From positions 257,217 to 321,216 of the forward strand of contig JAJOLD010000001.1 of assembly GCA_021129515.1 (NCBI GenBank): DNA of 64,000 nt. The letters are read 5' to 3'. Origin of the DNA: Minisyncoccota bacterium (GTDB lineage: Bacteria; Patescibacteriota; Minisyncoccia; Phycocordibacterales; UBA918). Positions 14,161 through 53,907 of the stretch are shown here, piece by piece; position 1 is the first letter of the stretch, and each line of letters starts with the position of its first letter. A program made the position numbers and the translations under genes. Below the pieces are notes generated by a model, which saw nothing but the letters and a program-made list of their open reading frames with translations, was not told the origin of the DNA and did not search any database.

Positions 14161-17100
14161 ATGGCAGATACGAAACTCAATGCAGACTTCATTCACCTCC
14201 ACACCCACGGACACTACTCTCTTTTAAACGCGCTTCCAACCTCCTCTGAGCTTGTCGATGCTGCGAATGCAGATACTATGCCCGCACTCGCACTGACCGA
14301 TGCTGGGGCTCTCTATGGTGCCGTTGATTTCTACAAAGCATGCACCAAGGGCGGTATCAAAGCTATTATTGGTGTTGATGCATACCTTGCACCACGTACT
14401 CGACACGATAAGGATGGACGCCTCGACAAACCACGTGGACGCGTCGTATTCCTCGCCAAAAATAATGACGGATATGTAAACCTCATCAAGATGGTCACGG
14501 AGTCATGGGTGAACGGCTTCTACTACAAACCTCGTATTGACCATGAGCTCATCGAGCAATACCACCAGGACCTCATTTGTATTATTCCTTCCTTCAGCGG
14601 CGAAAGCACCCTTGCGCTCAAAGACGGCGACACCGAAAAAGCAGGCGAAGTACTCGATTGGTACAAGAGTATCTTTAAAGACGACTGCCACCTTGAAGTG
14701 ACGCACCACCCAGAAATTGGAGACCATGAGGAACTCCAGGAAAAAATTATTGCACTCGGAAAAGCGTCAAACACACCACTGGTTGCCGCACACGACGTGT
14801 ACTACCTCAAACCCGAAGATGCACTCGCTCGAGACGTCGTCATGAAAATCCAAAACGGCGGTGTGGTTGATACCCTCGGCGGCGCAGGCGAAGAGGACTT
14901 CTCATTCATTACGCAAGCAAAAGCAAAAGAACTCTTTGCAAACACGCCTGAAGCACTCGCAAATACCGTCAAAATCGCCGAGCAGTGTAATGTCACCATG
15001 ACGCCGGGAGAAGTATGGCACTTCCCCAACTACATCATTGAGAGCGGTCGTGAACCAGACGATGAGCTGCGTATCACCTCGTACGAAGGCATGGCGTGGC
15101 GTGGACTTGATCCAGAAGACCCAGAGGTGAAAGCACGACTCGACTATGAGCTTGATGTCATTAAGACCAAGGGATACGCAAAATATTTCCTCGTGGTGGG
15201 AGACCTCATTCGTGAAGCGCGTGAGCGCGGTATTTTGACGACTATTCGAGGTTCGGTCGCGGGATCACTCACCACCTACGTACTTGGTATTACCAATGTA
15301 GACCCGCTCGACTACAAACTTCCCTTTGAGCGCTTTCTCAACCCAGAACGACCATCAGCTCCTGATATCGATATGGACTTCGCCGATAATCGCCGCGACG
15401 AGATTATTGCGTATGCACGAGAGAAGTATGGCGACGATAAAGTAGCACAGATTGGTACCTTTGGAACCATGATGGCACGCGCTGCGGTGCGTGATACTGC
15501 GCGCGCCTTAGGGCACCCGTATGCAACCGGAGACCGCATTGCAAAACTCATTCCTATGGGGAGCCAAGGATTTGCAATGACCATCGACCGCGCACTCGAT
15601 ATGGAGCCAGAACTTGCAGAACTCTATAAAAAAGATGCAGAAACGCGTGAAGTTATTGATCTTGCAAAGCAAATAGAGGGACGTGCGCGTCACCTTGGGG
15701 TACACGCAGCCGGTGTGGTGATTGCACCCGAACCCCTCGGCGAGTTTACTCCCGTACAGATTGATACCAAATCAGGCAAGATCATTACCCAATACGAAAT
15801 GCATAGTGTAGGTGAAGATGGTGTGGGACTTTTGAAATTCGACTTCCTCGGCATCAAAAACCTTGCCATCCTTGCAGACGCCGTGAAGCGGGTAAAGAAA
15901 ATCCGTGACATTGATATCGATATTGAAAACATTCCACTTGATGACCAAAAGACCTTCGACATGCTCGCACGCGGTGAAACCATGGGGCTCTTCCAGCTCA
16001 ATGGGTCCGGCATGACTGCCTTCCTGAAACAACTCCGCCCAACCACCATTCACGACATCAACGCGATGGTTGCACTCTATCGCCCAGGACCGATGGAATC
16101 TATTCCACAGTATATTGAGCGTAAACATAATCCCACACTCGTGACCTACCTCGACCCGCGACTTGAGGAGGTTCTCGACCGTTCCTATGGGGTGATTACC
16201 TACCAAGACGATGTTATGATGATTTCTATCAAGCTCGCAGGCTACTCATGGCTCGATGCCGACAAACTCCGTAAAGCGATGGGTAAGAAGGTGCCTGAGA
16301 TTATGGAAGCGGAAAAGGAGAAGCTCATGGTTGGTTTTGCTGACCATGGCAAAATCTCCCCGACCATCGCTAACAAGCTCTGGGCGCTCATTGAGCCATT
16401 TGCTGCATACGGGTTCAACAAGGCGCATGCGGCGAGTTATGGGCGTGTTGCGTACCAAACCTCATATATGAAGGCAAACTTCCCTGAGGAGTATATGTCT
16501 GCCGTCCTCACTGCTGACTCTGGTGACACGGAAAAAATTTCTGAAATCATCCATGAGTGTGAACGTATGGGTATCGAGGTACTGCCACCAGACATTAACG
16601 AAAGTTTCGGACCGTTCTCTGTCGTACCCGCTAGTAAAACAGTAATTCAAGCCAGCGCTACAGAACCTGATGTAGGTAATCCTGGCACTGATTCACAGGT
16701 TGAGGCTACTAGTTCGACTACTGATTCTCCTGAAAAATCCCAGATGCGAGGCTCTGACGAGAATCGTAGTGAGCCATATCAAGTATATGGTGAAGGAGAC
16801 TCGGAGTCAGGAACGAAGCAGGTGGGAGAATTTCAGGAGAATCAGGCAAGGATTCGATTTGGTTTGACTACCATTAAAAATTTTGGAGAAGGTATCACCG
16901 AAGCCATCATCGACGAACGCAAAGCGAACGGACCATTTACCTCCCTCACCGACTTCCTCACTCGCGTTATCGATAAAAATCTCAACAAAAAATCCCTCGA
17001 GGCACTCATTATGGCAGGTGCACTCGATAGTATTGGTGATGAGCGTGGCAAAATGCTCCACAACCTCGACACCATGCTTGCCTTTAATAAAGAAAAAAGC

Positions 17101-17589
17101 ACCGCAGCCGAATCGTCGCAAGATTCGCTCTTTGGCATGATGAATGACGCAACCTTGCACGAAGTGACCCTTGAAGACGCAGCACCCGCAAGCAAACGCG
17201 ATATGCTCATTTGGGAAAAAGAGCTACTTGGTGTGTACGTATCAGGGCACCCGCTCGACGAGTATCCCGACGAACTCAAAAAGCGTCCCAGCATTGCACA
17301 AACCTTAGAGAGCTACAAAGGCGCCTCGGTCGTGACCGCCGGCATGATTGAGTCGGTACGCGAGCTGCTTACCAAGAAAGGTGACCATATGGCATTTGTT
17401 GTACTCGGTGACCAAACACACACCATTGAAATGGTCACTTTCCCTGAGACCTACAAAACCCACAAGGAACTCCTCGAACCAGGCACCTGTGTTGCCGTCA
17501 AAGGCAAATTCACCGTCCGTAATGATGAGCCCGGTATTATGGTAGATAAAATCAAAAAGCTTGTGCCGAGTTCTATTGAAACTAAGTAG
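14161..17589 (+). CDS. dnaE: DNA polymerase III alpha subunit
   Basis: Begins with the PHP domain (FIHLHTHGHYSLLNA), then the polymerase core, and ends with an OB-fold C-terminus. A low-complexity insertion lies at ~16620-16870. Confidence 0.97.
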   Translation: MADTKLNADFIHLHTHGHYSLLNALPTSSELVDAANADTMPALALTDAGALYGAVDFYKACTKGGIKAIIGVDAYLAPRTRHDKDGRLDKPRGRVVFLAKNNDGYVNLIKMVTESWVNGFYYKPRIDHELIEQYHQDLICIIPSFSGESTLALKDGDTEKAGEVLDWYKSIFKDDCHLEVTHHPEIGDHEELQEKIIALGKASNTPLVAAHDVYYLKPEDALARDVVMKIQNGGVVDTLGGAGEEDFSFITQAKAKELFANTPEALANTVKIAEQCNVTMTPGEVWHFPNYIIESGREPDDELRITSYEGMAWRGLDPEDPEVKARLDYELDVIKTKGYAKYFLVVGDLIREARERGILTTIRGSVAGSLTTYVLGITNVDPLDYKLPFERFLNPERPSAPDIDMDFADNRRDEIIAYAREKYGDDKVAQIGTFGTMMARAAVRDTARALGHPYATGDRIAKLIPMGSQGFAMTIDRALDMEPELAELYKKDAETREVIDLAKQIEGRARHLGVHAAGVVIAPEPLGEFTPVQIDTKSGKIITQYEMHSVGEDGVGLLKFDFLGIKNLAILADAVKRVKKIRDIDIDIENIPLDDQKTFDMLARGETMGLFQLNGSGMTAFLKQLRPTTIHDINAMVALYRPGPMESIPQYIERKHNPTLVTYLDPRLEEVLDRSYGVITYQDDVMMISIKLAGYSWLDADKLRKAMGKKVPEIMEAEKEKLMVGFADHGKISPTIANKLWALIEPFAAYGFNKAHAASYGRVAYQTSYMKANFPEEYMSAVLTADSGDTEKISEIIHECERMGIEVLPPDINESFGPFSVVPASKTVIQASATEPDVGNPGTDSQVEATSSTTDSPEKSQMRGSDENRSEPYQVYGEGDSESGTKQVGEFQENQARIRFGLTTIKNFGEGITEAIIDERKANGPFTSLTDFLTRVIDKNLNKKSLEALIMAGALDSIGDERGKMLHNLDTMLAFNKEKSTAAESSQDSLFGMMNDATLHEVTLEDAAPASKRDMLIWEKELLGVYVSGHPLDEYPDELKKRPSIAQTLESYKGASVVTAGMIESVRELLTKKGDHMAFVVLGDQTHTIEMVTFPETYKTHKELLEPGTCVAVKGKFTVRNDEPGIMVDKIKKLVPSSIETK

Positions 17590-17929: not shown

Positions 17930-19717
17930 GTGATTATGAGTAACTTAGAACAAAAACGACACACCCTCGCACACCTTCTCGCCGACGCGGTGCGCAAGGA
18001 ATACCCCCACGCGAAACCAACCATCGGCCCTGCAATCGAGAATGGCTTTTATTATGACTTTGATTTCTCTGGAGGTCCTAATCCTTCGGACGGACAAGCG
18101 AATGCACCCGGCGATGGAGACCTGAAGAAAATCCAAAAGCACATGAAGAAGACATTGTCTTCGTGGACAGCATTTTCCCACAAAGAAGTATCTGCAGACG
18201 ATGCTCGTGCATACTTCAAAGACAATCCGTACAAAATCGAGCTCATTGATGAACTTGAGAAAGCGGGTGAAGCAATTACGTTCTATACAGTTGGCAAAGA
18301 AGGTGCCGAATTTACCGACCTCTGCGGTGGTGGCCACGCTGAGAATCCTGCAGCAGACATTCCCACTGACAGCTTCAAGCTCGACAAAATCGCCGGTGCG
18401 TACTGGCGGGGTGACGAGAAGAACGCAATGCTCACGCGCATCTACGGTGTCGCCTTTGATACAAAAGAAGACCTCGAAGCATACGAAGTACAGCTCGAGG
18501 AAGCAAAGAAGCGCGACCACCGGAAGCTCGGCAAAGAGCTCGACCTATTCACCTTTTCAGAACTGGTCGGTTCGGGGCTGCCGCTCTTTACCCCAAAAGG
18601 AACCCTGATGCGTGACTTAATCGTTGAGAAAATCATGCACATTCAGGCAAAATATGGGTATGAAAAGGTAACGATTCCACACATTACGAAATGTGACCTA
18701 TACAAAACCTCAGGACATTGGGAGAAATTTGGAGATGAATTATTTAAAGTGAAAGGAAAGTCGGACGCTGAGTTTGTGATGAAGCCGATGAATTGCCCGC
18801 ACCATACACAAATTTTTGCGAGTAAGCCACGCTCATACAAAGAACTCCCCATCCGATACGCGGAAGCAACCATGGTGTACCGCGATGAGCAGCAGGGTGA
18901 GCTAATTGGACTTGGGCGTGTCCGTTCCATTACGCAAGATGATGGACATGTCTTTTGTACCACTGACCAAATTGAACAAGAAGTCGAAAATATTGTGCAT
19001 GTGATTAGTGAGTTTTACCAAAGCCTCGGCATGTTTACCGAAGGCAATTATTGGGTATCCCTTTCAGTACGTGACCCAGAGGAGCCTGACAAGTCCCTTG
19101 GTGGTACAGAAGTATGGGACAAAGCGGAAGCAACACTCGCTGCGATTGCAGAAAAGCTCTCACTTCCCTACACACGCGTTGAAGGAGAAGCTGCATTTTA
19201 TGGACCAAAACTCGACTTTATGTTTAAAGACGCACTGGGTCGTGAGCGGCAGCTTGCAACTGCACAGCTCGATTTTGTGATGCCGGGACGGTTTAACCTA
19301 GAATACACCGACAATGAAGGCAATAAACAGACACCGGTCATGATTCATCGCGCAATTGCCGGCTCACTTGAGCGATTCATGGCAATTATGATTGAGCATT
19401 TTGCGGGGGCCTTTCCACTCTGGCTCTCCCCTGTACAAGTTGCGGTGATTCCGGTTTCAGATGCACACAACGAATACGCACAGAGCGTCTACGATGCGCT
19501 CAAGGCTGCCGGTATTCGTACCGAGCTCGATACCTCAAATGAGTCAATGGGCAAGAAGATTCGGAATGCAAAGAAAGAGAAGCTGCCATACTTTGTTGTT
19601 ATCGGCGACAAGGAAGTCGGGGGGAAAACGATTACGGTTGAATCACGCGATGGCGAATCAACTGCAATGACTTTGAGTGCATTTACGAATCATCTTCTGA
19701 GCGAGATTGATACCTAG
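17930..19717 (+). CDS. thrS: threonyl-tRNA synthetase, short form without an N-terminal TGS domain
   Basis: Class II aaRS core with motifs CGGGHAENP and MNCPHH and a C-terminal anticodon-binding domain. Confidence 0.96.
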   Translation: MIMSNLEQKRHTLAHLLADAVRKEYPHAKPTIGPAIENGFYYDFDFSGGPNPSDGQANAPGDGDLKKIQKHMKKTLSSWTAFSHKEVSADDARAYFKDNPYKIELIDELEKAGEAITFYTVGKEGAEFTDLCGGGHAENPAADIPTDSFKLDKIAGAYWRGDEKNAMLTRIYGVAFDTKEDLEAYEVQLEEAKKRDHRKLGKELDLFTFSELVGSGLPLFTPKGTLMRDLIVEKIMHIQAKYGYEKVTIPHITKCDLYKTSGHWEKFGDELFKVKGKSDAEFVMKPMNCPHHTQIFASKPRSYKELPIRYAEATMVYRDEQQGELIGLGRVRSITQDDGHVFCTTDQIEQEVENIVHVISEFYQSLGMFTEGNYWVSLSVRDPEEPDKSLGGTEVWDKAEATLAAIAEKLSLPYTRVEGEAAFYGPKLDFMFKDALGRERQLATAQLDFVMPGRFNLEYTDNEGNKQTPVMIHRAIAGSLERFMAIMIEHFAGAFPLWLSPVQVAVIPVSDAHNEYAQSVYDALKAAGIRTELDTSNESMGKKIRNAKKEKLPYFVVIGDKEVGGKTITVESRDGESTAMTLSAFTNHLLSEIDT

Positions 19718-19783: not shown

Positions 19784-22700
19784 TTAGCCAATAGCTTTCA
19801 CTGCCTTCATCACAGCCAACTTAACGGAAGCTGTTTCGTTAGAGTACGTACCATCAATTGCTGAGGTAAGCGCTCCGATAGCTGCTTCGTACTTCGCGTC
19901 GAGGTCGGCATTTTGACCCTTCGTCGCTCGGTACTGTGCATCAAGGTCTGCTGCTGCAGTCGCAAGTGTCGCAAGTGGGTTTTCACCAAGTGTTGCGTAT
20001 GCAGCTACTACGTCACCCTTCATGATTGCTGCCGCAAGTGCGTCAGTTGACGCTGGAGTGGCAACGGGTGCTGGAGTTGGTGCTGCGGTCATCTGCACAC
20101 CTGCAGCATGCATAAGTGCTACTGCACGTTCTTTGTTGATGACTGCCCATCCATCTTCAAGTGGATGTGCTTCTTTCACTTTGTTAATAAGTGTATCCAA
20201 GAGTGCAAATCGCGCTTCAGTAGTATCAGCTTGTTCGATAATGAATCGAATTGCGTTACTTGAAAGTAGACAATTTGCTTCGTTTGCTCGGTTTTCGAGT
20301 GCTGCGATTTCGTCGGCATCCTGACCGTTGTCTGCAAATGCCACATCCTCTGTTGCCACCTCTTCTGTGTCCGCTGCATATCCAACAACTGGATTGTATG
20401 TTGCAGTTGGCAGATTTGATGGAATGTCAGTCGCTGCAGGAATCGTGTGCTTGGTCACCTCAGGAACAGTTACGCTCTGTGGCATAAATGTCTGTTCTGT
20501 TGCCGTATCATTTGGAAGTTCGATACCAAGTACTGAACTCTTTCGAATCACGAGTACGTATGCAACACCAAGACTCCAGACAATAAGCAGTGTGTAGAAG
20601 ATTGCGGTCAATGTTGGACCTGCTTCAAAACCAGTGTATGGCACGCTTCCGAGGGACACCACGAGTGGCTGTTGGTCACGTACAACACTCAAGGTTACAT
20701 CATCTTCAATTTCTACCTCGACTTTACAGTCACGATCCCTACTTCCACGGAATACGGTCATCGTATACTCAGTATCTCGCGTTGGCTTGAGGGTAATAGA
20801 ACCGTCATCCTCGTCAACATCTTTATCTTCTGATCGTTCGGTGTCGATAATCACGTTTCCGCGGTTATCTTCAATCTTCATGTCATTTGTTCGGGCGTTG
20901 TCCCAGGTAAGGGTAATTTCTTCACCCTTGGTAATCTTGGTGTCTGAAATTTCAAGTTCACAACGAGGTGAGCTTGAACCACCACCGCCACCACCAGAAG
21001 TGGTATCAACTGATACGGTACACGTCACTTCATCGGTACCATCGGTAGCAGTAAGCGTGTAGGTGGTATCGCTGTTTACGGTAACGGTTTCATCACCATC
21101 AACAGCTACCGCACCAATACCTTGGTCAATAGACACACTCGTTGCACCAGTTGTGTTCCACTTGAGTTCTACTGATGAACCTTCATGAACACTGCTGTCA
21201 CTCACCGTAAATGCATCACAACGTAGTTCTGAAACCGGTTCATCTTCAATAGTTACCGTATCATCACAGGTCACAGTCTTACCATGTCCTGTTGCAGTCA
21301 ATGTATATGTTGTATCGGTAGTTGGTGCAGATGTAGTAGAACCATCAGTTGTGACAGAACCAATACCTTGGTCAATAGATACCGTATCAGCATTTACCGT
21401 TGACCACGTGAGCGTCACGTCGTCACCCTTGGTAATCGTGTCGGGAGTCACGGCAAGTGTACACTGTGGTTCAGGATTTGGCGTTGCAACAATAATTTTT
21501 TCTTCACATGTTACCTGACCGCCAGCGCCCGTTGCAGTAAGGGTATAGGTTTTTGTTTCTGTTACGTTGAGTACCTTGCTTCCATCGGGATCTACCGTAC
21601 CAACCCCTTGGTCAATAGAGACATCAGTAGCGTTTGTTGTTTCCCACGTGAAGGTCACGTCGCCACCACCAATAGGAAGTGATGCTGGAATACCAGCAAA
21701 TGCATCACAGGTAGGTGCAGGTACTTCGATTTTTTCAAACATCGCACATACTGGTTCTACGCTGTTTGCTGATGTGGTGTCTGGGTATTTTGCATGTATT
21801 GCTTTAATACCAGTAATTGGCTGTGTGAGCATATACTTTGTTTCGACAACCTGCTCACGCTGTGCTTCACGCACAGTATCAGCAAGATCACCAATTGCAT
21901 CAGATGCTTGTACACGAGTACCGTTCACAAAGAATCCAAGGTACCACCGTTCATCTGGCTGTGAGACTTGCTCACGACCGTTGTACCCATCCCATGAGAA
22001 GAGGGTAATTTTGTAGCTCCCAGCATCAAGATTCACATTTCGAAGCACAGTTGTCGCTTGTGAAGAATCTTGGTCGCTGCGGATGCGATTATTAAATGAA
22101 ACAACAGTTCGGTCAGCATTGCCCGCAAATGGACATGCTGGACGTACCGGATTTTCTGGCACCTCGACAACCACCTCAGTTGTACAGGTTTTGCTTCCTG
22201 CTGCATTTTTTGCAGTGAGAGTGTACGTTGTGTCGGTTGTTGGTGCTACGGTTGTCGTACCGTCTTCAGCAACAACACCAACGCCATTATCAATCATAAC
22301 TTCGGTTGCGTCGGTAGTCTCCCAAGTCAACGTTGCTGACGCACCTTTCGTAATTTTTGATGGCTGTGCGTCAAATGCATCACATGTTGGCAATGGATCT
22401 GGAATGCGTTCAACCATTGCACACACTGGCCAAAGACTATTTGGACTTGTGTTGTCTACCCATGCTGCATGTACTGCTTTTACACCGGTAATTGTGTCGG
22501 TAATAGTAAGTGCATTGTTCACCTTTTGCTTTCGCTGTGCAGTTTCTACACCATCAGCAAGATCAGCTGTTGAACCAGACTCAGCAAGTACGTTTGCACC
22601 ATTGAGGAACACCAAACGGTATTGCTCTCGATTCTGTCCAGTTACTGCTGTGCGCCCAACATACCCGTCGTACGCAAAGAGGTGTACTTTGTAGTCTCCC

Positions 22701-23041
22701 GCAGGAAGATTGGTTGACTCAACATCAGTTTCAGGATTATTGAAATTCTTTGAGCTGTAAATACGGTCAGTGAATTCAAAAACTGTTTTAGTATCACTAT
22801 CCTTAAATGGACATGCCGGAGGATCAATAAATTGTGTTGATGCAGATGCAACTGCCACCTCCATGGTCAATCCAGTTGTGTCAGTGCCCACATTTCCTAG
22901 TGATGGTAGCATCACAAAAACCGCAAGCAATGCACTGATAAGCGCAATAGCGGTAAATGCAACAGTACCAATATGTGTGTGTTTGATAATTGTATTCATG
23001 ATAATGTTTGTTGTTTCTAAATAATCCCACCTGCAATGCAC
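19784..23041 (-). CDS. giant repeat-containing surface protein (1085 aa) with an LPXTG-like sorting segment in mid-protein
   Basis: N-terminal signal/TM, then two tandem ~230-aa repeats (ACPF...YK..LF..DGY.GR...PVCAM.E.I..P.PTCDAF), then five Ig-like ~90-aa repeats (TLTW.T.NA..V.ID.G.G.V...TTDTTYTLTA). It continues with a Gly/Ser stretch, the segment SLGSVPYTGFEAG, a TM helix PTLTAIFYTLLIVWSLGVAYVLVI, then RK, and a ~290-aa tail. The likely start is the Met at ~22999 (MNTIIKH...). Confidence 0.85.
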   Translation of the reverse strand: MHCRWDYLETTNIIMNTIIKHTHIGTVAFTAIALISALLAVFVMLPSLGNVGTDTTGLTMEVAVASASTQFIDPPACPFKDSDTKTVFEFTDRIYSSKNFNNPETDVESTNLPAGDYKVHLFAYDGYVGRTAVTGQNREQYRLVFLNGANVLAESGSTADLADGVETAQRKQKVNNALTITDTITGVKAVHAAWVDNTSPNSLWPVCAMVERIPDPLPTCDAFDAQPSKITKGASATLTWETTDATEVMIDNGVGVVAEDGTTTVAPTTDTTYTLTAKNAAGSKTCTTEVVVEVPENPVRPACPFAGNADRTVVSFNNRIRSDQDSSQATTVLRNVNLDAGSYKITLFSWDGYNGREQVSQPDERWYLGFFVNGTRVQASDAIGDLADTVREAQREQVVETKYMLTQPITGIKAIHAKYPDTTSANSVEPVCAMFEKIEVPAPTCDAFAGIPASLPIGGGDVTFTWETTNATDVSIDQGVGTVDPDGSKVLNVTETKTYTLTATGAGGQVTCEEKIIVATPNPEPQCTLAVTPDTITKGDDVTLTWSTVNADTVSIDQGIGSVTTDGSTTSAPTTDTTYTLTATGHGKTVTCDDTVTIEDEPVSELRCDAFTVSDSSVHEGSSVELKWNTTGATSVSIDQGIGAVAVDGDETVTVNSDTTYTLTATDGTDEVTCTVSVDTTSGGGGGGSSSPRCELEISDTKITKGEEITLTWDNARTNDMKIEDNRGNVIIDTERSEDKDVDEDDGSITLKPTRDTEYTMTVFRGSRDRDCKVEVEIEDDVTLSVVRDQQPLVVSLGSVPYTGFEAGPTLTAIFYTLLIVWSLGVAYVLVIRKSSVLGIELPNDTATEQTFMPQSVTVPEVTKHTIPAATDIPSNLPTATYNPVVGYAADTEEVATEDVAFADNGQDADEIAALENRANEANCLLSSNAIRFIIEQADTTEARFALLDTLINKVKEAHPLEDGWAVINKERAVALMHAAGVQMTAAPTPAPVATPASTDALAAAIMKGDVVAAYATLGENPLATLATAAADLDAQYRATKGQNADLDAKYEAAIGALTSAIDGTYSNETASVKLAVMKAVKAIG

Positions 23042-23287
23042 GCGAGAATATCAAAAATAACAAATATGATACGCACCATCACCACATGCAGACGATTGCT
23101 GTGGTAGACGATACTAGTAGGTTGTAAAAGAGGTTATTTGGGTCGCACCCAAAGAACAAGTAATAGTAAAATTGTATACTATTTTTAATATTTTGTCAAG
23201 TATCATACCTACTCCATCAGGCTACCAAAGGTATACACCGAAATGGACGGTTTTTCACCCTTTACAACAATGCAGATATACTGCCAA

Positions 23288-24106
23288 CTATACATCTGCA
23301 TTTAATGCTCGTTTTTCAACAAGCGTTGCTTCGACAATATAGCGATCATCTTTTGAACCAAATGAGTTACAAGTCGCAAGTGTCAGTTTTGCTTCCCCAT
23401 ATTCAATTGCGACATCAGCACTGCTTGCCTTTACTTCGTAGACACGGTCTACACGATATACATACTCCATATCTGCTGAGTGGAGGCGCACGGTATCACC
23501 CCAAGTGAGTTTCTGGATACCGTTAAATGCTTGAAAATTCTTATTGATGACATTAGGCAGATAGCTTGAGTGCCCAAAGAGAAACAACGTACCATCTTGC
23601 ATGAGGTTCGCTGAATCAGGGTGTCGCACTACACCTGAAAGCAACGCATGGTCAAGGTCAGCAATACTGGTTGATTGCGGATTACGCACTGACACGATGC
23701 GATTATCAAGCGAATCAAAGATAATCTGGAGTGGCAGTGCTGCCGTTGCGGCAGGCGCATCCGCAGAAGAAGACGTGTATACTTCTTCTGTACGAACTGG
23801 CTCAGACGCAGCACGGAGCGTATCTGTACGTAACACTTCAGTATCAGCATCAATTTCAGCGCTCTGTTCAGCGATGGTAGGGCTATCTGGTACCGGAGTA
23901 GCAAACGTAGGCTCGTCAATCACCACAGCAGCTTTGGTCTCAGATGCATCGTGAGTTGGTTTCTCCGGCAAAAAATCAATAACGAATAGAAGCCCATACG
24001 TTACCGTAATAACACCCATAAATACCAAGAAAAAGAGTACCTTTTCCTCCCAAAAAATATCCCAGATGTCAGGTGTATTGTTGTCGTGTGTAATCTTTGT
24101 AGTCAT
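23288..24106 (-). CDS. sortase family transpeptidase, membrane-anchored
   Basis: N-terminal TM segment. Catalytic His in FLFGHSSY and catalytic Cys in LTLATCNSF (TLxTC motif). It is adjacent to the candidate substrate. Confidence 0.85.
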   Translation of the reverse strand: MTTKITHDNNTPDIWDIFWEEKVLFFLVFMGVITVTYGLLFVIDFLPEKPTHDASETKAAVVIDEPTFATPVPDSPTIAEQSAEIDADTEVLRTDTLRAASEPVRTEEVYTSSSADAPAATAALPLQIIFDSLDNRIVSVRNPQSTSIADLDHALLSGVVRHPDSANLMQDGTLFLFGHSSYLPNVINKNFQAFNGIQKLTWGDTVRLHSADMEYVYRVDRVYEVKASSADVAIEYGEAKLTLATCNSFGSKDDRYIVEATLVEKRALNADV

Positions 24107-24157
24107 AACTTATGTAAATATATAATACATTATTTATACTTATTTGTCAACATCACT

Positions 24158-24364: not shown

Positions 24365-25459
24365 ATGAATCAGGTATCAGAAAAATCAAAAAACGGAGCC
24401 ATTAAGACCTTAGCAATTATTGGCTTTGTTGCCATGGTGGTACTTGTGGTGTGGCTATTTATACAAGTAATTCGTGTTGTGCCAACCGCATTCTCTTCCC
24501 TCGCCTCTTTGGCTGATAGTGTCTACAACAATCGACCTATCAATACACTCGATGTCGCTCTTGAAAAAAGCATTGTCAATGCAGGTGATGATTTCACCGT
24601 ATCATGGACCAATCTTAATCGTGAAGGTATCTACACCTTCCAGTACGAGTGTGTCGATGGTGTATCGGTTGATGTCCGTACTGCAGCTGGTGTAAACGCA
24701 GTACCCTGTGAGCACGGACTTGCACTTCCAGGAAGTACAAACCAAATGGACATGCTTATCTCATCAGAAAAACGACGATTTACTGATGTACCCTTCACCC
24801 TCACTTTCACCGAGATAAACGAGGTAGAACCACTCTTCACTCGTGACGGTAAAGTAACCATCATCAATGCTACTATCCCGCAAAACGTAGATCTTGCTGA
24901 ACACACTGATGACGATACCGACACCACCACTGATACCACACCTGACACTGCTCACGGTACGGTTGCTGGTGAACGTACAACTACCGAAGAAAGCACCGAA
25001 GTTGCAACACGACCAACACCAACACAAACAACAGGCACGACCCCGGCGCCACGTACTCCCACACCAACAACCTACTCATACATCCCGGTATCATATGAAA
25101 ATGGTTTTACCGACCTTCGGGTAACCTTCCTCGGTATCGGTGTGTTGAGCGGTGGCACCTTTACACCAAAGGCGGCACTCGACACTGACGAAGATAATGG
25201 TGCATTCCAGTTTGAGGTAAAGAACATTGGTACCAAAACTTCAGAAAAGTGGTCATTTGAGGCAATACTACCATCAGGCCAGGAATTCGACTCAGAAAGC
25301 CAGACCGCACTCAAGCCAAACGAACGAGCAGTATTTACGTTAGGATTTGAAGATATTGGAGATACTGGTTCAAAAGAAATTTCTGTTGCACTTGACGTCG
25401 ACAATGACTCTAAGAAAAGTAACAACTCCTTTGACTGGAGCGTGAAAGTGACTGACTAG
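24365..25459 (+). CDS. membrane-anchored cell-surface protein with a Thr/Pro-rich linker and a CARDB-like C-terminal domain
   Basis: N-terminal TM. TTTDTTPDT...PTPTQTTGTTPAPRTPTPTT linker. The C-terminal FQFEVKNIGTKTSEKWSFEAILPSG pattern resembles CARDB/DUF11 beta-sandwich domains. Confidence 0.7.
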   Translation: MNQVSEKSKNGAIKTLAIIGFVAMVVLVVWLFIQVIRVVPTAFSSLASLADSVYNNRPINTLDVALEKSIVNAGDDFTVSWTNLNREGIYTFQYECVDGVSVDVRTAAGVNAVPCEHGLALPGSTNQMDMLISSEKRRFTDVPFTLTFTEINEVEPLFTRDGKVTIINATIPQNVDLAEHTDDDTDTTTDTTPDTAHGTVAGERTTTEESTEVATRPTPTQTTGTTPAPRTPTPTTYSYIPVSYENGFTDLRVTFLGIGVLSGGTFTPKAALDTDEDNGAFQFEVKNIGTKTSEKWSFEAILPSGQEFDSESQTALKPNERAVFTLGFEDIGDTGSKEISVALDVDNDSKKSNNSFDWSVKVTD

Positions 25460-26396: not shown

Positions 26397-28502
26397 CTAT
26401 ACATCAATCTCAGCATTGAGTGCATTTGTCTGAATGAATGACTTACGGCTCGACACATCGGTACCCATGAGAATATCGAAGACTTTATCAGCACCTTGCG
26501 CATCTTCGATAGTCACCTGCTTCAAGATACGATTCTCAGGATTCATAGAGGTCTCCCAGAGCTCTTCGGGGTTCATTTCACCAAGACCCTTGTAGCGCTG
26601 AATACGAAACTTTGATGATTTCTTTGCAGCCTCTTCTTCATTCGCGTCTTCTTCAGGAGTTTCATCATCATCTGCAGATGGCTCTTCCTCTCCTACAATG
26701 GCAAGTTTCTCAGCTTCGGTATACGCATACCAGATTTCCTTCCCTTTTTGAATCTTATACAGCGGCGGTTGCGCAATATAGAGATAGCCGCCATCGATAA
26801 TTGGTCTAAAGTAGCGGTAGAACAGCGTGAGCAAGAGCGTGGTAATATGTGCGCCGTCAACGTCAGCATCGGTCGCAATAATAACCTTGTGGTAGCGGAG
26901 CTTTTCCATATCAAACACATCCCCAATTGCAGTACCCATGGCAATCACGAGGTTCTTGATTTGCTCTGACGCGAGCATTTTATCGAGTCGTGCACGCTCC
27001 ACGTTCAGAATCTTACCGCGCAGTGGCAAAATCGCCTGTGTACGTCTATCGCGCCCCATCTTCGCTGAACCACCCGCAGAGTCTCCCTCTACAATAAAGA
27101 TTTCAGATTCCTCGGCACTCTTGGTCTGACAGTCAGCGAGCTTGCCCGGCAGGGTCATACCCTCAAGCGCACCTTTACGAAGTACTGAGTCTTTTGCAGC
27201 CTTCGCAGCCTTGCGCGCCTTCACCGCAATGATGACCTTATTAATCATCTGCTTTGCATCATCAGGATGTTCTTCGAGAAATTCCTGAAATGCCTCACTA
27301 AAGACCGATTCCACCGCACCACGTGCTTCGACCGAACCAAGCTTCGCCTTTGTTTGTCCCTCAAACTGAATCTCAGGCATTTTTATTGATATCACCGCAG
27401 TGATACCCTCAAGCACATCGTCTCCAGTAAAGGTACCATCTTTTTCTTTGATGAGATTATTTTTCTTTCCGTATGAGTTAAGCGTTCGCGTGAGTGCTGT
27501 TTTAAAACCAGTGACATGCGTACCGTGTTCTGGGTTGTAGATATTGTTTGCAAACGCACTGATACGTGCAGAAATATCATCAACATACTGTAGTGCAATT
27601 TCAACACCAAGTACCTTTTCATCGATATCTTTGCGTTCAACATAAAAGATATTTTTATGCACTGCTTTTTGATGTTGGTTATTGAATGCCACCAGTGACC
27701 GCAACCCCCCTTCAAAGTAGAAGGTCATTGTAGGTGCTTCAATACGGAGGTCGTCAATGTAGACAGTGTCCTGGAGTGACTTTGGATCGAGTTTCACATC
27801 ACTCTCCCGAGCATCAATCACGGTGAGCCGCATTCCCTTCACCAAGTATGCCTGCTGCCGAAGATGGTTCACAATTTTTTTCCAGCTATAGGTAATCTCT
27901 GGGAAAATATCAGGATCAGCTTGAAATGCCACAATAGTGCCCTGGAATTTTGTCTTACCTAGCTTCTTTACTTTTGCTTTTGCCTTTCCAATATTGTATT
28001 CCTGCATGTACTGGAAGCCGTCTTTGTGGACATCAACACGCGTATGTGTCGATAGTGCATTCACCACAGACACACCCACACCATGGAGTCCACCAGACAC
28101 CTTATACCCGGAGTCCTCACCACCGAATTTACCTCCAGCGTGGAGTGTTGTCATAATGGTCTCAAGCGCAGACACCTTTGTCTGTTTGTGTATATCAACC
28201 GGAATACCTCGACCGTTATCGACAACCCGAATGTAGTTGTCGGGCAAGAGCGTCACTTCAACCGTATCGGCAAAACCACCCATGGCTTCATCGCGAGCAT
28301 TATCAAAAATCTCCCAAATCATGTGGTGGAGACCTTCAGGACCCGTCGTACCGATGTACATCCCCGGACGCTTTCGTACCGGCTCCAACCCCTCAAGGAC
28401 TGAAATAGCTGATGCGTCGTATCCTTTCTTTTTACTTGCCCGTGCGTTTTTAGGCGCTTTAGGGGTTGCTTTCTTTGCTGTTTTTGTGGCTTTTTTAGGC
28501 AT
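26397..28502 (-). CDS. gyrB: DNA gyrase subunit B (or topoisomerase IV ParE) with a Lys-rich N-terminal extension
   Basis: GHKL ATPase region (GLHHMIWEIFDNARDE, GGLHGVGVSVVNALS) and TOPRIM (EGDSAGGSAKMGRDRRTQAILPLRGKILNV). No gyrA is adjacent. Confidence 0.92.
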   Translation of the reverse strand: MPKKATKTAKKATPKAPKNARASKKKGYDASAISVLEGLEPVRKRPGMYIGTTGPEGLHHMIWEIFDNARDEAMGGFADTVEVTLLPDNYIRVVDNGRGIPVDIHKQTKVSALETIMTTLHAGGKFGGEDSGYKVSGGLHGVGVSVVNALSTHTRVDVHKDGFQYMQEYNIGKAKAKVKKLGKTKFQGTIVAFQADPDIFPEITYSWKKIVNHLRQQAYLVKGMRLTVIDARESDVKLDPKSLQDTVYIDDLRIEAPTMTFYFEGGLRSLVAFNNQHQKAVHKNIFYVERKDIDEKVLGVEIALQYVDDISARISAFANNIYNPEHGTHVTGFKTALTRTLNSYGKKNNLIKEKDGTFTGDDVLEGITAVISIKMPEIQFEGQTKAKLGSVEARGAVESVFSEAFQEFLEEHPDDAKQMINKVIIAVKARKAAKAAKDSVLRKGALEGMTLPGKLADCQTKSAEESEIFIVEGDSAGGSAKMGRDRRTQAILPLRGKILNVERARLDKMLASEQIKNLVIAMGTAIGDVFDMEKLRYHKVIIATDADVDGAHITTLLLTLFYRYFRPIIDGGYLYIAQPPLYKIQKGKEIWYAYTEAEKLAIVGEEEPSADDDETPEEDANEEEAAKKSSKFRIQRYKGLGEMNPEELWETSMNPENRILKQVTIEDAQGADKVFDILMGTDVSSRKSFIQTNALNAEIDV

Positions 28503-28677: not shown

Positions 28678-29889
28678 TTATTCTTCAAGAATCATTTGAT
28701 AGATAAGTGTCCCGTCATACACATACACCGAACCATTTTCAATACGTGCATCAAGTCCTGCACCACGCACTAACGGCTGCATGTTTTGCCATGCACGATT
28801 ATCAACTTCAACCACATAGACACCACTATTCAGAACAAGCAACACAAGGTTGGTGTTCCCCAAGAAAAAGTCAAAGTAGCGGACAGGTTCATAGTGTGGA
28901 CCAATTTCAATAATAGGCTCACACGTACTATCATCTGCCACCGTTTGTATTGGGTGTATAAACTCAACCACCTCGGGCTCTTCAGGAACTTGCTCAAGTG
29001 AAATCAACGATGGCGCTACTATATCTCCTTCTGCAACACTGGTGGTAGTGCTATAGCGTGCAAAGGGTTCAGCACAGTAGTAATAGGGCATTTGCTCACC
29101 AGCGCCAACCCATCGAGCAAAGAGTCGATTATCAGATTCATAGAGCCGCACACCACGACTTTCTTTTGTTGTCGTCGCGACCGTGTCGGTACTAGTTGCC
29201 GTTGTGGTCGCAGGCTGCAGTAGTGGCAAATTGATACCCGGAATTCCCACATCAGCATCGGTCGTTGATGTAGCAAACAAGGCAATCAACGCACCAAACT
29301 CCTGATTACGCTCAGTCTGTTCGGTAATTGTGGTGGTTGTTGCTATATACAGTGGGTTTGTGGTCGACGCAACAAGGAGTGACGATGTCGCAACCGGTAG
29401 GCCGGTATCATTGTCCGGAGTGGTAATGAGCAACGGCGTAATCACACGCGCCCGAGGCACCAGCGGCAAGTTAAATGCTTCTGCCTCGGTCACAATATGC
29501 GCATACACTGGCAACTCCTTTACCCACGTATGAAACCCTTCCCGCTGTACAGTCACTCGATGTGTCTTTGGGACCAAACTTTGGGCATAAAACGCTTGTC
29601 GGAATACTCGTGACTCTGGCACAATCTCATCATCAATATAAATGGCGGTTCCTTCTCGCTCCGCAGCAATATACATACCGCCCGTGCTCACAATATTAGT
29701 TGTCCCTCCTAACTGGATACGATATCCCGTTGCATACAGATACAAAAATGGAATCAGCACAACAAATAACGTCACCAACGCAAGGAACGCTGTATGTCGG
29801 TGCCGAATAGAGAGTGGTTCTTGAGGTTCTGTGTGCATATGTATATACAGCCTATCACTTTTTATGCGCGATGTTTTGGTGTTACCCAA
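28678..29889 (-). CDS. hypothetical membrane-anchored protein with a PEGA-like domain
   Basis: N-terminal TM. SLVPKTHRVTVQREGFHTWVKEL resembles a PEGA domain. A Thr-rich segment is present. Confidence 0.6.
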   Translation of the reverse strand: MGNTKTSRIKSDRLYIHMHTEPQEPLSIRHRHTAFLALVTLFVVLIPFLYLYATGYRIQLGGTTNIVSTGGMYIAAEREGTAIYIDDEIVPESRVFRQAFYAQSLVPKTHRVTVQREGFHTWVKELPVYAHIVTEAEAFNLPLVPRARVITPLLITTPDNDTGLPVATSSLLVASTTNPLYIATTTTITEQTERNQEFGALIALFATSTTDADVGIPGINLPLLQPATTTATSTDTVATTTKESRGVRLYESDNRLFARWVGAGEQMPYYYCAEPFARYSTTTSVAEGDIVAPSLISLEQVPEEPEVVEFIHPIQTVADDSTCEPIIEIGPHYEPVRYFDFFLGNTNLVLLVLNSGVYVVEVDNRAWQNMQPLVRGAGLDARIENGSVYVYDGTLIYQMILEE

Positions 29890-50371: not shown

Positions 50372-50383
50372 ATCGATACGCTA

Positions 50384-51163
50384 TTACAACGGCAATGCCG
50401 TAATAGTAGTAGTAGCAGTATACACCCCTGGTGCCTGCAATACTGACCCGCCAACCCCAACACGGAAGTGAATAGTCGTCGTTGCACCGTTTGGATGGTT
50501 GGCATTTGTATTGGCAGCAATTTGTACCGCCGTGGTACTCAACCCATCCCAACACGCAAACGCAGAGTCAGTGGTATCGACATTACAGGTGTCGGAGCCA
50601 TTGTCTTTAAAGCGTTGTACGATATCGACCCCTTCTGGAGTATAGCCTAAGTGACTATCAGCAGTGCTCGTGATAAATGCAAAATCAGGCACTGCGCCTA
50701 CCGGCGTATAATCAGCAATGGTGTCAGACCCTTTTTGCATTGCCGGACTGTTTGCAGCTGCAATAGTGAGCTCGTACCCTGATGGACTATCAGTGGTGAC
50801 GGTGACCGTGGTTGAGCCATTTGAAATACCACCCGTGACACCTGCAATTGAAGGACTCATGGTCACATTGCCTGCTCCAGTGAGCGCAATATATACTTCC
50901 TGCATCTGCTGGTATCCTGCCTTGAGTGCATACGATGCGCTCGACGACTCACCCGTTGCAACCTCGCCAACGGTGGATTCTTGTACATAACTTGTCGATG
51001 ATGAAAGCCCTCCACCGGCATTGATGCTGTCACTTTGTATTGCATAGTTACTACTCTGCATGACCTGTGCATACAGCGTATTTCCGTACACACATCCGAA
51101 ACCGAGTATTGCAGAGAGCACTACTATGGGTATGAAATCACTGCGCATACCTTTTTTCATCAC
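50384..51163 (-). CDS. secreted beta-rich Ser/Thr/Gly-rich protein (259 aa), paralog of 52199-52912
   Basis: Signal peptide. Shared blocks with the paralog: VTMSP.I.G..GG..NG..TV.V.T...SGY..TI and TTTIHFRV...YTAT. Possibly WxL-like (CWDGL); not confirmed. Confidence 0.65.
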   Translation of the reverse strand: MMKKGMRSDFIPIVVLSAILGFGCVYGNTLYAQVMQSSNYAIQSDSINAGGGLSSSTSYVQESTVGEVATGESSSASYALKAGYQQMQEVYIALTGAGNVTMSPSIAGVTGGISNGSTTVTVTTDSPSGYELTIAAANSPAMQKGSDTIADYTPVGAVPDFAFITSTADSHLGYTPEGVDIVQRFKDNGSDTCNVDTTDSAFACWDGLSTTAVQIAANTNANHPNGATTTIHFRVGVGGSVLQAPGVYTATTTITALPL

Positions 51164-52182: not shown

Positions 52183-52198
52183 AGTAGTCGAATGTAAG

Positions 52199-52912: not shown

Positions 52913-53027
52913 ACAATTAGATACGACTGCAATTACAGATTAATGTAGAGCCATTATAGCCTTAAAATACCTACGAGGTGATACCGAACGTATATATATG
53001 TGTATAACTACACGCTACCTCCACCAC

Positions 53028-53876: not shown

Positions 53877-53907
53877 ACGTCATATACACACTGCGTATGC
53901 GCATGTT

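What the first reader, a model, noticed from the sequence alone, without database searches (positions are those of the whole stretch)
19784..24106. Sortase adjacent to a 1085-aa repeat protein whose sorting-signal-like segment is in the middle of the protein, followed by a ~290-aa tail
The sortase (TLxTC Cys, LxGH His) sits directly upstream on the same strand. In the large protein, the segment ...SLGSVPYTGFEAG + PTLTAIFYTLLIVWSLGVAYVLVI + RK has the tripartite architecture of a cell-wall sorting signal: an LPXTG-like pentapeptide, a hydrophobic helix, then basic residues. In known substrates that signal is the extreme C-terminus; here the ORF runs on for ~290 aa in an Ala-rich tail with no recognizable domain. 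If sortase cleaves at VPYT|G, the ~750-aa repeat ectodomain (two ~230-aa repeats and five Ig-like repeats) would be attached to the wall. A TM-anchored ~310-aa intracellular fragment would be left behind. That would be a sortase-dependent, proteolysis-coupled surface and signalling arrangement not described to my knowledge. Alternatively the protein is a bitopic adhesin and the motif is a coincidence.
Basis: partly seen in the sequence, partly recalled or inferred. Interest (0 to 1): 0.72.

Follow-up and report, generated by a model that had tools for sequence, protein, structure and literature searches.

The report
Sortase with internal-signal giant adhesin
A tiny-genome (CPR/Patescibacteria) bacterium carries a conserved gene pair, a sortase and one giant adhesin-like surface protein. 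The adhesin's strongly conserved sortase-type anchoring signal sits in the middle of the protein, ahead of a folded cytoplasmic tail, which has not been described for sortase substrates.

Summary
ORF 19784-23041(-) encodes a 1085-aa protein with VPYTG at aa 800-804, a TM helix at 809-833 and RK after it. A 250-aa tail follows the RK. A bona fide sortase lies directly upstream.

The motif is not chance. A ~55-aa module (GIxLxxVPYTGFEAGP, a TM with invariant F, Y, W, Y, then two basic residues) recurs in 577 protein clusters, nearly all from Patescibacteria MAGs. The sortase lies upstream on the same strand in 73 of 83 loci; the other ten are cut just upstream.

The fusion is not an artefact. 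Both tail domains are fused in 55 of 84 loci. The tail has two folded domains, with a weak fold resemblance to the lid and collar of clamp-loader AAA+ proteins. It is optional: absent in 9 loci, truncated in 10, and a separate ORF in 10.

Unexpectedly, nearly all the separate tails lie in the -1 frame behind an A8-A9 tract (A7 in one), conserved between species under purifying selection. That suggests recoding into short and long isoforms.

Sortase cleavage at VPYT|G is the best-supported reading but is unproven. I rate this a new variant of a known kind.

The parts
23288..24106 (-). Membrane-anchored sortase, 272 aa. It has an N-terminal TM at about aa 22-47 and a low-complexity linker. The catalytic domain is aa ~152-263 (nt 23318-23653), with His179, Cys246 (TLATC) and Arg255.
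   Evidence: Pfam PF04203 at E=1.3e-16. All NCBIfam class A-F and GN models score below their cutoffs. The closest solved structure is B. anthracis SrtA 2kw8, E=9e-8. The H/C/R triad is conserved in 74 aligned orthologues.
19784..23041 (-). Giant adhesin-like surface protein, 1085 aa. The start is GTG 23041 or ATG 22999.
   Evidence: ORF list. No Pfam or NCBIfam family matched. Orthologues occupy the same position in 83 loci.
22883..22978 (-). N-terminal hydrophobic segment (aa 22-53): a signal peptide or signal anchor.
   Evidence: Hydropathy scan.
22145..22822 (-). Repeat unit 1 (aa 74-299): a jelly-roll lectin/CBM-like domain (aa 73-218) followed by an Ig-like domain.
   Evidence: Self-comparison gives 46% identity, E=2e-64. 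The AF2 model has pLDDT 92 and is all-beta. Foldseek hits include the BC2L-C lectin N-domain, TNF-like folds and CBM6/36, at E about 4e-4 and TM 0.4-0.5.
21467..22144 (-). Repeat unit 2 (aa 300-525): a second jelly-roll plus Ig-like pair.
20702..21466 (-). Three further Ig-like repeats (aa 526-780). The last one follows a poly-Gly linker and is conserved in all homologues.
   Evidence: Pattern scan and homologue sequences.
20537..20686 (-). Conserved sorting-signal-like module (aa 786-835). It comprises a stalk, VPYTG (nt 20630-20644), FEAGP, a TM helix (nt 20543-20617) and RK (nt 20537-20542).
   Evidence: A profile search found 577 representative proteins at E<=1e-3. Logo from 209 sequences. 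In the AF2 model the motif lies in a low-confidence flexible segment just before the TM helix. It is not matched by LPXTG-anchor models.
20327..20536 (-). Cytoplasmic linker, predicted disordered (aa 836-905). It contains a conserved NLPT motif.
   Evidence: AF2 pLDDT is below 50. Alignment A2.
20105..20326 (-). Tail domain 1 (aa ~906-979), an alpha/beta domain with the motifs LENxA[HN]...LLSSxAxR...P.EDGW.VIN..R. It has an AAA+ lid-like fold.
19787..20047 (-). Tail domain 2 (aa ~999-1085), a helical bundle with the motifs AAADLDAxYR...LTSAxDGTY...AVK.A.MKA.K. It is collar-like.
   Evidence: AF2 pLDDT is about 80. It is conserved in 55 fused and 10 separate tails. The PDB sequence-profile search found nothing significant.
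24365..25459 (+). Divergently transcribed, N-terminally anchored protein of 364 aa with a CARDB-like domain. It is the third conserved member of the cluster.
   Evidence: Weak CARDB hit at E=0.002. An orthologue sits between gyrB and the sortase on the opposite strand in nearly every locus.
23171..23199 (-). Promoter-like element upstream of the adhesin gene (TTGACA, 17 nt, TACAAT; 11 of 12).
   Evidence: This is a consensus match only.
24122..24150 (-). Promoter-like element upstream of the sortase gene (TTGACA, 17 nt, TATTAT; 11 of 12).
   Evidence: This is a consensus match only.

Best explanation
**What it is.** This is a conserved, single-copy surface module found almost only in Patescibacteria MAGs, mostly labelled Paceibacteria/Parcubacteria. 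It has three genes:
- a dedicated membrane-anchored sortase;
- immediately downstream, its one cognate substrate;
- on the opposite strand, an N-terminally anchored CARDB-like protein.

**The substrate.** It is an adhesin-like protein. It has a signal peptide, two (lectin/CBM-like jelly-roll + Ig) units and three more Ig-like domains. A short stalk leads into the module GIxLxxVPYTGFEAGP, then a TM helix, then [RK][RK].

**Most likely mechanism (inferred, not shown).**
1. The protein is exported by Sec and held in the membrane by the internal TM helix.
2. The sortase recognises VPYTG in the flexible juxtamembrane stalk. Recognition probably also uses FEAGP and the aromatic face of the TM helix.
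3. The sortase cleaves between T803 and G804 and transfers the ~750-aa ectodomain to the cell wall or lipid II.
4. Residues G804-G1085 stay behind as a membrane-tethered fragment.

**The remnant.** Its cytoplasmic part is a disordered linker plus two folded domains. These resemble the lid and collar domains of clamp-loader-type AAA+ proteins but lack an ATPase. I infer that this is an oligomerisation or partner-binding module. It would act on the precursor before sorting, on the remnant after it, or both.

**The tail is an accessory.** Relatives keep it fused, drop it, or place it in the -1 frame behind an A8-A9 tract. In that last case transcriptional or ribosomal slippage would produce both a short form and a long form. 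The short form has a classical C-terminal tripartite signal.
For: **Shown.**
- The sortase has an above-threshold Pfam match, and its His/Cys/Arg triad is conserved in 74 orthologues.
- P, T and G of the pentapeptide are invariant, and position 1 is V/I/L/T/M. The motif is followed by 5 residues, a ~24-residue TM and two basic residues. That is the geometry of a sorting signal.
- The sortase is upstream on the same strand in 73 of 83 loci. The other ten are cut within about 1.3 kb upstream.
- Each of the 80 retrieved genome loci comes from a different contig and assembly accession.
- No other ORF in 1.4 Mb of neighbourhoods carries a C-terminal tripartite signal.
- In several species the 0-frame protein ends ...VIKKKVS* or ...RKKEQKLY*. 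That is a classical extreme-C-terminal signal.
- The motif lies in a low-confidence, non-helical segment just outside the TM helix in the AF2 model.
- MurB, an SLT transglycosylase and SecA are encoded in the window. Peptidoglycan precursors and Sec export are therefore available.
- The tail is modular: 55 fused, 10 separate, 10 half, 9 absent.
Against: - No cleavage data exist.
- Conservation far exceeds what sortases usually require. Y at the 'X' position is 98% conserved, and FEAGP, F/Y/W/Y in the TM and the cytoplasmic GS[IV]LGF motif are nearly invariant. That could equally mark an uncleaved structural or oligomerising anchor.
- A large, folded, conserved cytoplasmic domain is what one expects of a bitopic receptor whose two sides must stay connected.
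- Curated LPXTG-anchor models do not match the module, and the sortase fits no curated class.
- The whole gyrB...dnaE neighbourhood is syntenic. Adjacency alone is therefore weaker evidence than it looks.
- Whole genomes could not be surveyed for other substrates.
Confidence: 0.55

Rival explanations
1. The protein is an uncleaved bitopic adhesin or receptor. VPYTGFEAGP plus the aromatic TM helix is a structural or oligomerisation anchor that couples the ectodomain to the cytoplasmic lid/collar-like domains. The neighbouring sortase works on other proteins, or is linked only through conserved synteny.
For: - Conservation of the whole 45-residue block is extreme, including the 'X' position and the TM face.
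- The cytoplasmic tail is folded and conserved.
- The module does not match LPXTG-anchor HMMs.
- The entire gyrB-dnaE region is syntenic, so linkage is not independent evidence.
Against: - The invariant positions are exactly the sortase-critical P, T and G, at the right distance from a TM and basic residues.
- The tail is dispensable or separable in about a third of species. Physical coupling of the two sides is therefore not required.
- No alternative substrate was found in the window or in 1.4 Mb of flanks.
- The sortase, adhesin and CARDB-like triad stays together even where insertions break the surrounding synteny.
Confidence: 0.3
2. The sortase does cleave at VPYT|G, but the acceptor is not peptidoglycan. 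The ectodomain would be ligated to another protein, such as the co-conserved CARDB-like protein or another copy of itself. That would build a polymer or lattice, as pilus-type class C sortases do.
For: - A third, N-terminally anchored beta-sandwich protein is always part of the cluster.
- The sortase scores about equally, and weakly, against class C, D and E models.
- CPR envelopes are poorly understood (PMC5220378).
Against: No pilin-motif lysine or other acceptor was identified. Nothing was tested. Peptidoglycan synthesis genes are present.
Confidence: 0.1
3. The long ORF in this window is an assembly, frameshift or fusion artefact that joins a normal sortase substrate to a separate downstream gene.
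For: About 10 of 84 related loci do have the tail as a separate ORF.
Against: - 55 of 84 loci, from independent assemblies, have the same continuous fused ORF.
- The window junction (GTGATTCGAAAGAGTTCAGTACTTGGT) has no homopolymer, and the window contains no A/T run of 9 or more.
- The split cases share a specific conserved -1 arrangement behind an A-tract (A7 to A9), rather than random breaks.
Confidence: 0.03

Closest known systems
Sortase A / LPXTG cell-wall sorting signals of Gram-positive bacteria
   Same: A membrane-anchored Cys transpeptidase with a His-Cys-Arg triad. The substrate has an N-terminal signal peptide and a tripartite signal: an xPxTG pentapeptide, a hydrophobic helix and basic residues.
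   Different: - The pentapeptide is VPYTG, with a conserved Y at the 'X' position.
- Neither the signal nor the enzyme matches the curated models.
- The signal is internal in most species and is followed by 250 aa with two folded domains.
- The flanks and the TM helix are nearly invariant.
Dedicated sortase with a single adjacent target, for example SrtB-IsdC, or the marine proteobacterial sortase TIGR03784 with its neighbouring target (from my own knowledge of these families)
   Same: A one-enzyme, one-substrate gene pair with its own variant motif, conserved as a cassette.
   Different: A different lineage (CPR), a different motif, an internal signal and a cytoplasmic extension. A third, CARDB-like partner is also conserved.
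C-peptide signalling after sortase cleavage in Streptococcus gordonii, as summarised in PMC11502775
   Same: The membrane-embedded remnant left by sortase is proposed to have a function of its own.
   Different: There the remnant is a ~30-aa TM peptide sensed by a histidine kinase. Here it would be a 282-aa fragment with folded cytoplasmic domains, and no kinase is linked to it.
Tripartite C-terminal signals of exosortase, archaeosortase, rhombosortase and myxosortase (PMC3237569, PMC11980579)
   Same: A signature motif, a semi-conserved TM helix and a basic cluster, recognised by a dedicated processing enzyme. The signal shows strong sequence conservation.
   Different: Those enzymes are polytopic intramembrane proteins, not sortase-fold transpeptidases. 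Their signals are strictly C-terminal.
Two length variants made by slippage at A-runs: dnaX tau/gamma (the E. coli A AAA AAG frameshift, and Thermus A9 transcriptional slippage; PMC1088944) and Citrobacter tssM (PMC4256274)
   Same: In some relatives an A8-A9(G) tract (A7G in L078) separates a short 0-frame product from a -1-frame extension that is under purifying selection.
   Different: This is not present in the window's own gene. No stimulatory RNA structure was found. Two products have not been demonstrated.
Lid (domain II) and collar (domain III) of clamp-loader-clade AAA+ proteins (DnaX, delta', RFC, Hda, MgsA)
   Different: There is no P-loop ATPase domain and no significant sequence similarity. 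TM-scores are low (about 0.2). This is a resemblance, not membership.

Membership tests
Sortase (PF04203) | Match to the sortase domain model above the curated threshold | tested here: met
   60.9 bits against a cutoff of 26.6, E=1.3e-16.
Sortase (PF04203) | Catalytic His, TLxTC Cys and downstream Arg | tested here: met
   His179, Cys246 and Arg255 are present. The columns are at least 97% conserved in 74 orthologues.
Sortase classes A-F and GN (NCBIfam) | Score above a class-specific cutoff | tested here: not met
   The best scores are 29-32 bits against cutoffs of 140-165. The enzyme is unclassified and divergent.
LPXTG-type cell-wall sorting signal | An [L]PxTG pentapeptide, then a hydrophobic helix, then a basic tail | tested here: met
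   VPYTG, then 5 aa, a TM at 809-833, then RK. P, T and G are invariant in homologues. Position 1 is V rather than L.
LPXTG-type cell-wall sorting signal | The signal lies at the extreme C-terminus | tested here: not met
   250 aa follow the RK in the window. The signal is internal in most loci. It is terminal only in the 0-frame products of a few relatives.
LPXTG-type cell-wall sorting signal | Match to curated anchor models (TIGR01167 / PF00746) | tested here: not met
   No hit even at E<=10 on the isolated module, nor on the short-form C-termini.
LPXTG-type cell-wall sorting signal | Cleavage between T and G, and amide linkage to peptidoglycan | not testable with these tools
   This needs biochemistry or proteomics.
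Dedicated sortase-target pair | Conserved adjacency, and a single target per genome | tested here: inconclusive
   Adjacency holds in 73 of 83 loci, and the rest are truncated. Each of the 80 retrieved loci is from a different contig and assembly accession. No other candidate was found in the flanks. Whole genomes could not be scanned.
Clamp-loader-clade AAA+ (lid plus collar) | Significant sequence or profile similarity | tested here: not met
   Hda_lid at E=0.18 only. The PDB profile search returned nothing relevant.
Clamp-loader-clade AAA+ (lid plus collar) | Fold similarity | tested here: inconclusive
Clamp-loader-clade AAA+ (lid plus collar) | P-loop ATPase core | tested here: not met
   The tail has only a linker and two small domains, with no Walker motifs.
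Programmed -1 frameshift or transcriptional slippage site (in relatives, not in the window) | A slippery A AAA AAG or A9 tract at the frame junction | tested here: met
   Found in L007, L018, L026, L050, L053, L054, L059, L078, L084 and L085. 9 of the 15 A>=9 runs in 1.36 Mb lie at this junction.
Programmed -1 frameshift or transcriptional slippage site (in relatives, not in the window) | The arrangement is conserved between species, with purifying selection on the downstream frame | tested here: met
   pS is 0.64-0.78 and pN is 0.14-0.25 for pairs that share the same shift site. dN/dS is about 0.14 where it could be calculated.
Programmed -1 frameshift or transcriptional slippage site (in relatives, not in the window) | A stimulatory downstream RNA structure, or demonstration of two products | tested here: not met
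   No conserved structure in 4 sequences. The products cannot be tested here.

The most novel reading that the evidence does not exclude
Sortase cleavage at an internal VPYT|G site is a proteolysis-coupled device. It would wall-anchor a lectin/Ig adhesin and at the same time liberate a membrane-tethered cytoplasmic fragment resembling a clamp-loader lid and collar, which has its own assembly or signalling function. In some lineages the ratio of tail-less to tail-bearing precursor would be set by programmed slippage at an A9 tract. If so, this is a previously unknown way of linking surface display to the cytoplasm, in a core and near-universal gene cassette of a major CPR lineage.
Probability: 0.2. 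Interest if true: 0.85.

Novelty: new variant of a known kind. Interest (0 to 1): 0.68.

Why it matters
- **CPR biology.** CPR/Patescibacteria are thought to live attached to other cells, yet their envelope and attachment machinery are largely unknown. This cassette is single-copy, syntenic and strongly conserved across more than 140 species-level genomes. It is therefore a prime candidate for a core surface structure of these organisms.
- **Sortase biology.** A sorting signal that is normally internal, and followed by folded cytoplasmic domains, would break the rule that such signals are C-terminal. It would imply a functional remnant.
- **Recoding.** The recurrent A8-A9, -1-frame junctions give a concrete and testable case of possible recoding in uncultivated bacteria.
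- **A practical use.** The 55-residue module is an easy signature for annotating this family.

Tried and rejected
- **Family searches on the whole adhesin.** Pfam and NCBIfam gave nothing useful, only a sub-threshold Y_Y_Y hit.
- **LPXTG-anchor, Pfam and NCBIfam models on the isolated module and short-form C-termini.** No relevant hit, only spurious PsaO hits.
- **Sequence-profile search of the tail against PDB.** Nothing meaningful; the OSCP hit at E=0.018 was judged chance.
- **Pfam on the tail.** Only Hda_lid at E=0.18.
- **Conserved RNA structure downstream of the A9 site.** None found.
- **Literature searches.** I searched for 'PYTG'+sortase, sortase+CPR+sorting signal, sortase+Patescibacteria/Parcubacteria, and 'internal LPXTG'. 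No description of this module turned up, only general statements that many CPR encode sortases.
- **Sortase homologue search.** It returned only close orthologues in the top 120. It could not be used to infer specificity from distant relatives.
- **Frameshift or fusion artefact in the window.** Rejected.
- **Homopolymer sequencing error as the cause of the split tails.** Rejected. The same arrangement recurs in diverged species with saturated synonymous sites, and in independent assemblies.
- **Single-gene ThrRS NJ tree.** It scatters the split states among fused relatives. I did not rely on it for counting events.
- **Rfam and tRNA scan of the window.** Only one tRNA-Thr.

Full report
**1. 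The observation**

The window reads like a small Patescibacteria (CPR) genome. It has housekeeping genes on both sides of the locus: DnaE at 14161-17589, ThrRS at 17930-19717 and GyrB at 26397-28502. MurB, an SLT transglycosylase and SecA lie elsewhere in the window.

ORF 19784..23041(-) encodes 1085 aa. ORF 23288..24106(-) encodes a 272-aa protein that matches Pfam Sortase well above threshold. It has His179, Cys246 in TLATC, and Arg255.

In the large protein, VPYTG is at aa 800-804 (nt 20630-20644). It is followed by FEAGP, a hydrophobic helix at aa 809-833, and RK. After RK come 250 more residues.

The two long repeats are real: aa 74-299 against 300-525 gives 46% identity, E=2e-64. Five Ig-like repeats are present. 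It is the only motif-plus-TM arrangement of this kind in any real ORF of the window.

**2. The motif belongs to a very conserved module**

A search with the C-terminal 304 aa found 12 homologues. All carry xP[YN]TGF[ED]AGP plus a similar TM helix in an internal position.

A 56-position profile of this module was scanned exhaustively against 1.84 billion representative proteins. It found 577 proteins at E<=1e-3 and 249 at E<=1e-10.

- In the best 157 proteins the pentapeptide is VPYTG in 128, and otherwise I/L/T/MPYTG or VPHTG. The next five residues are almost always F[ED]AGP.
- In 209 distinct module sequences the consensus is GIxLxxVPYTGFEAGP. The TM helix has invariant F, Y, W and Y spaced along it, followed by two basic residues. 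The extraction pattern itself fixed P, T, G, A and G.
- Curated LPXTG-anchor models do not recognise the module.
- I found no paper describing it.

**3. Genomic context in relatives**

I scanned one genome per species (185,579 species) for PYTGFEAG. This gave 146 confirmed relatives, of which 80 loci were retrieved. Each locus comes from a different contig and assembly accession. Almost all are Patescibacteria MAGs labelled Paceibacteria, Parcubacteria, Kaiserbacteria, Nomurabacteria or Minisyncoccia. Some are labelled Saccharibacteria, and a few have labels outside the group entirely (Acidimicrobiales, Patiriisocius).

With three further loci found through proteins, the gene order is the same wherever the flank exists: gyrB, CARDB-like (opposite strand), sortase, adhesin, thrS, dnaE. 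The sortase is upstream on the same strand in 73 of 83 loci. The ten exceptions are cut just upstream.

The catalytic triad is conserved in all 74 aligned sortases. The enzyme fits none of NCBI's class models. Its nearest solved relative is B. anthracis SrtA, at E=9e-8.

Because the housekeeping neighbours are syntenic too, adjacency is supportive rather than decisive. No other ORF with a C-terminal tripartite signal occurs in about 1.4 Mb of these neighbourhoods.

**4. The tail**

AlphaFold2 was run with an 11-sequence alignment. It predicts:

| Region (aa) | Prediction |
|---|---|
| just before 809 | flexible segment carrying VPYTG |
| 809-837 | TM helix |
| ~838-905 | disordered linker |
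| ~906-979 | compact alpha/beta domain, pLDDT 90 or more |
| ~999-1085 | helical domain, pLDDT about 80 |

Both folded domains have strongly conserved motifs across relatives. The 'Ala-rich tail' is therefore a genuine two-domain region.

**5. The ectodomain**

The repeated N-terminal ~145-aa domain is confidently predicted (pLDDT 92) as a jelly-roll beta-sandwich. Its best matches are a TNF-like lectin (BC2L-C N-domain), TNF-family ligands, phage and virus receptor-binding or capsid jelly-rolls, and CBM6/36 modules. Together with five Ig-like domains this looks like an adhesin or ligand-binding surface protein.

**6. The tail is optional and modular**

Across the 83 loci plus the window:

| Tail state | Loci |
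|---|---|
| both domains fused (as in the window) | 55 |
| only domain 1 | 10 |
| no tail domains; protein ends in a conserved ~40-aa peptide ...ENRKKVEALVAKY... | 9 |
| tail in a separate downstream ORF | 10 |

The window's fusion is therefore the common state and not an artefact. Its junction has no homopolymer, and the window contains no A/T run of 9 or more.

**7. An unexpected finding in relatives**

In 8 of the 9 clean 'separate' loci, the tail ORF is in the -1 frame and overlaps the end of the adhesin ORF at an A-tract encoding Lys codons: A8-A9 in seven of them and A7G in L078. This happens at three different positions:

- directly after the TM helix;
- about 35 aa later;
- just before tail domain 1.

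L053 and L059 are the clearest case. The sequence ATAAAAAAAAAGGTTTCTTAGG reads VIKKKVS* in frame 0. In frame -1 it reads KKKGFLGF..., which restores the conserved juxtamembrane motif.

Two further, independent metagenome contigs show the same cassette.

Species that share a given shift have saturated synonymous divergence (pS 0.64-0.78) but low non-synonymous divergence. dN/dS is about 0.14 where it could be calculated. The arrangement is therefore old and the tail is still expressed. That excludes sequencing error and recent pseudogenisation.

A9 tracts are rare in these genomes. Of the 15 A>=9 runs on the + strand in 1.36 Mb, 9 lie at this junction and a tenth is in-frame at the same spot. 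No conserved downstream RNA structure was found.

A AAA AAG is the dnaX slippery heptamer. A9 is the classical transcriptional-slippage tract (PMC1088944; compare tssM, PMC4256274). The simplest reading is that these lineages make two forms:

- a short form, whose module is a textbook C-terminal tripartite signal;
- a long, tail-bearing form.

Phase variation or independent initiation cannot be excluded.

**8. Interpretation**

The best-supported model is a dedicated sortase-substrate pair. Cleavage at VPYT|G would wall-anchor the ectodomain and leave G804-G1085 in the membrane.

In favour:
- the sortase-critical residues are invariant;
- the geometry is correct;
- the stalk is flexible;
- linkage is strict;
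- no other candidate substrate was found nearby;
- short forms with a terminal signal exist.

Against:
- cleavage is unproven;
- the block is conserved far beyond normal sortase requirements;
- a folded cytoplasmic domain fits an uncleaved bitopic receptor equally well.

I give the cleavage model 0.55, the uncleaved bitopic model 0.30, ligation to a protein acceptor 0.10, and artefact 0.03 or less.

**9. Novelty**

Sortases in CPR are known in general (PMC6744442). Functional sortase remnants are known as short C-peptides (PMC11502775). Dedicated sortase-target pairs and tripartite signals are known as well.

What appears new:
- this specific module and cassette;
- its normally internal position ahead of folded cytoplasmic domains;
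- the recurrent A-tract, -1-frame junctions.

Hence 'new variant of a known kind', with moderately high interest that depends on experimental proof of cleavage.

Noticed in passing
L053:10136-10260, L059:10136-10260, L078:10140-10170, L007:7050-7115, L026:10205-10275, L018:1355-1375, L050:4122-4145, L054:1454-1475, L084:3344-3370, L085:818-845: In relatives whose tail is a separate ORF, that ORF is in the -1 frame behind an A-tract encoding KKK (A8-A9 in most, A7G in L078). Examples are A AAA AAG and A9. The junction occurs at three different positions. Frame -1 restores conserved motifs, the arrangement is shared by diverged species, and dN/dS is about 0.14 where it could be calculated. This is a candidate for programmed slippage giving short and long isoforms. 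The window itself has no such tract.
   Followed up: yes
window 19787-20326 (-), aa ~906-1085 of the large protein: The cytoplasmic tail folds into two domains. Their best structural matches are the lid and collar domains of clamp-loader-type AAA+ proteins (DnaX, RFC, Hda, delta', MgsA), but there is no ATPase core and no significant sequence similarity. The gene sits two genes away from dnaE. I regard that as probably coincidental.
   Followed up: partly
window 24365-25459 (+): A divergently transcribed 364-aa protein with an N-terminal TM helix, a Thr/Pro-rich linker and a weak CARDB-like domain. It is conserved next to the sortase in nearly every related locus, so it is a likely third component of the system. 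Its role is unknown.
   Followed up: partly
window 22388-22825 and 21713-22150 (-), aa 73-218 and 298-443: A duplicated ~145-aa jelly-roll domain with conserved CP[FL], WDGYxGR, QPNE, SPNSLxPICA and a Cys at each end. It is predicted at pLDDT 92. It resembles TNF-like lectins and CBM6/36 modules, which suggests glycan or ligand binding. No family model covers it.
   Followed up: partly
L002, L012, L013, L025, L040, L052, L055, L068, L074 (short-tail loci, several labelled Kaiserbacteria): In these loci the adhesin ends about 40 aa after the TM helix in a conserved peptide, GSILGFSLY...ENRKKVEALVAKYxGxNxK. No tail domain is detectable within 10 kb. The same peptide type ends the 0-frame product in L007 and L026, which still have a -1-frame tail.
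   Followed up: partly
window 48800-54993 (-): A run of six same-strand genes, several without any Pfam match. It includes an fn3-containing 523-aa protein and a protein with a near-threshold (26.9 bits vs cutoff 27.3) WxL-interacting-protein peptidoglycan-binding-like domain. This may be a second surface-protein cluster.
   Followed up: no
window 28678-31430 (-): A PEGA-domain protein and a family-2 glycosyltransferase lie next to gyrB. The same glycosyltransferase neighbourhood appears at the edge of L002.
   Followed up: no
L001 (ENA ERZ1714332 contig_782): This 993-kb contig has almost every gene in the region broken into small ORFs, including gyrB, pheST, thrS and dnaE. It appears to be an error-rich assembly. 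I did not use its 'split' tail as evidence.
   Followed up: partly
L015, L060 and the many loci labelled 'Candidatus Saccharibacteria': The record titles (Acidimicrobiales, Patiriisocius, Saccharibacteria) sit oddly with the shared cassette and gene order that these loci have in common with those labelled Paceibacteria, Parcubacteria or Kaiserbacteria. This suggests mis-binning or automated mislabelling of the MAGs.
   Followed up: no
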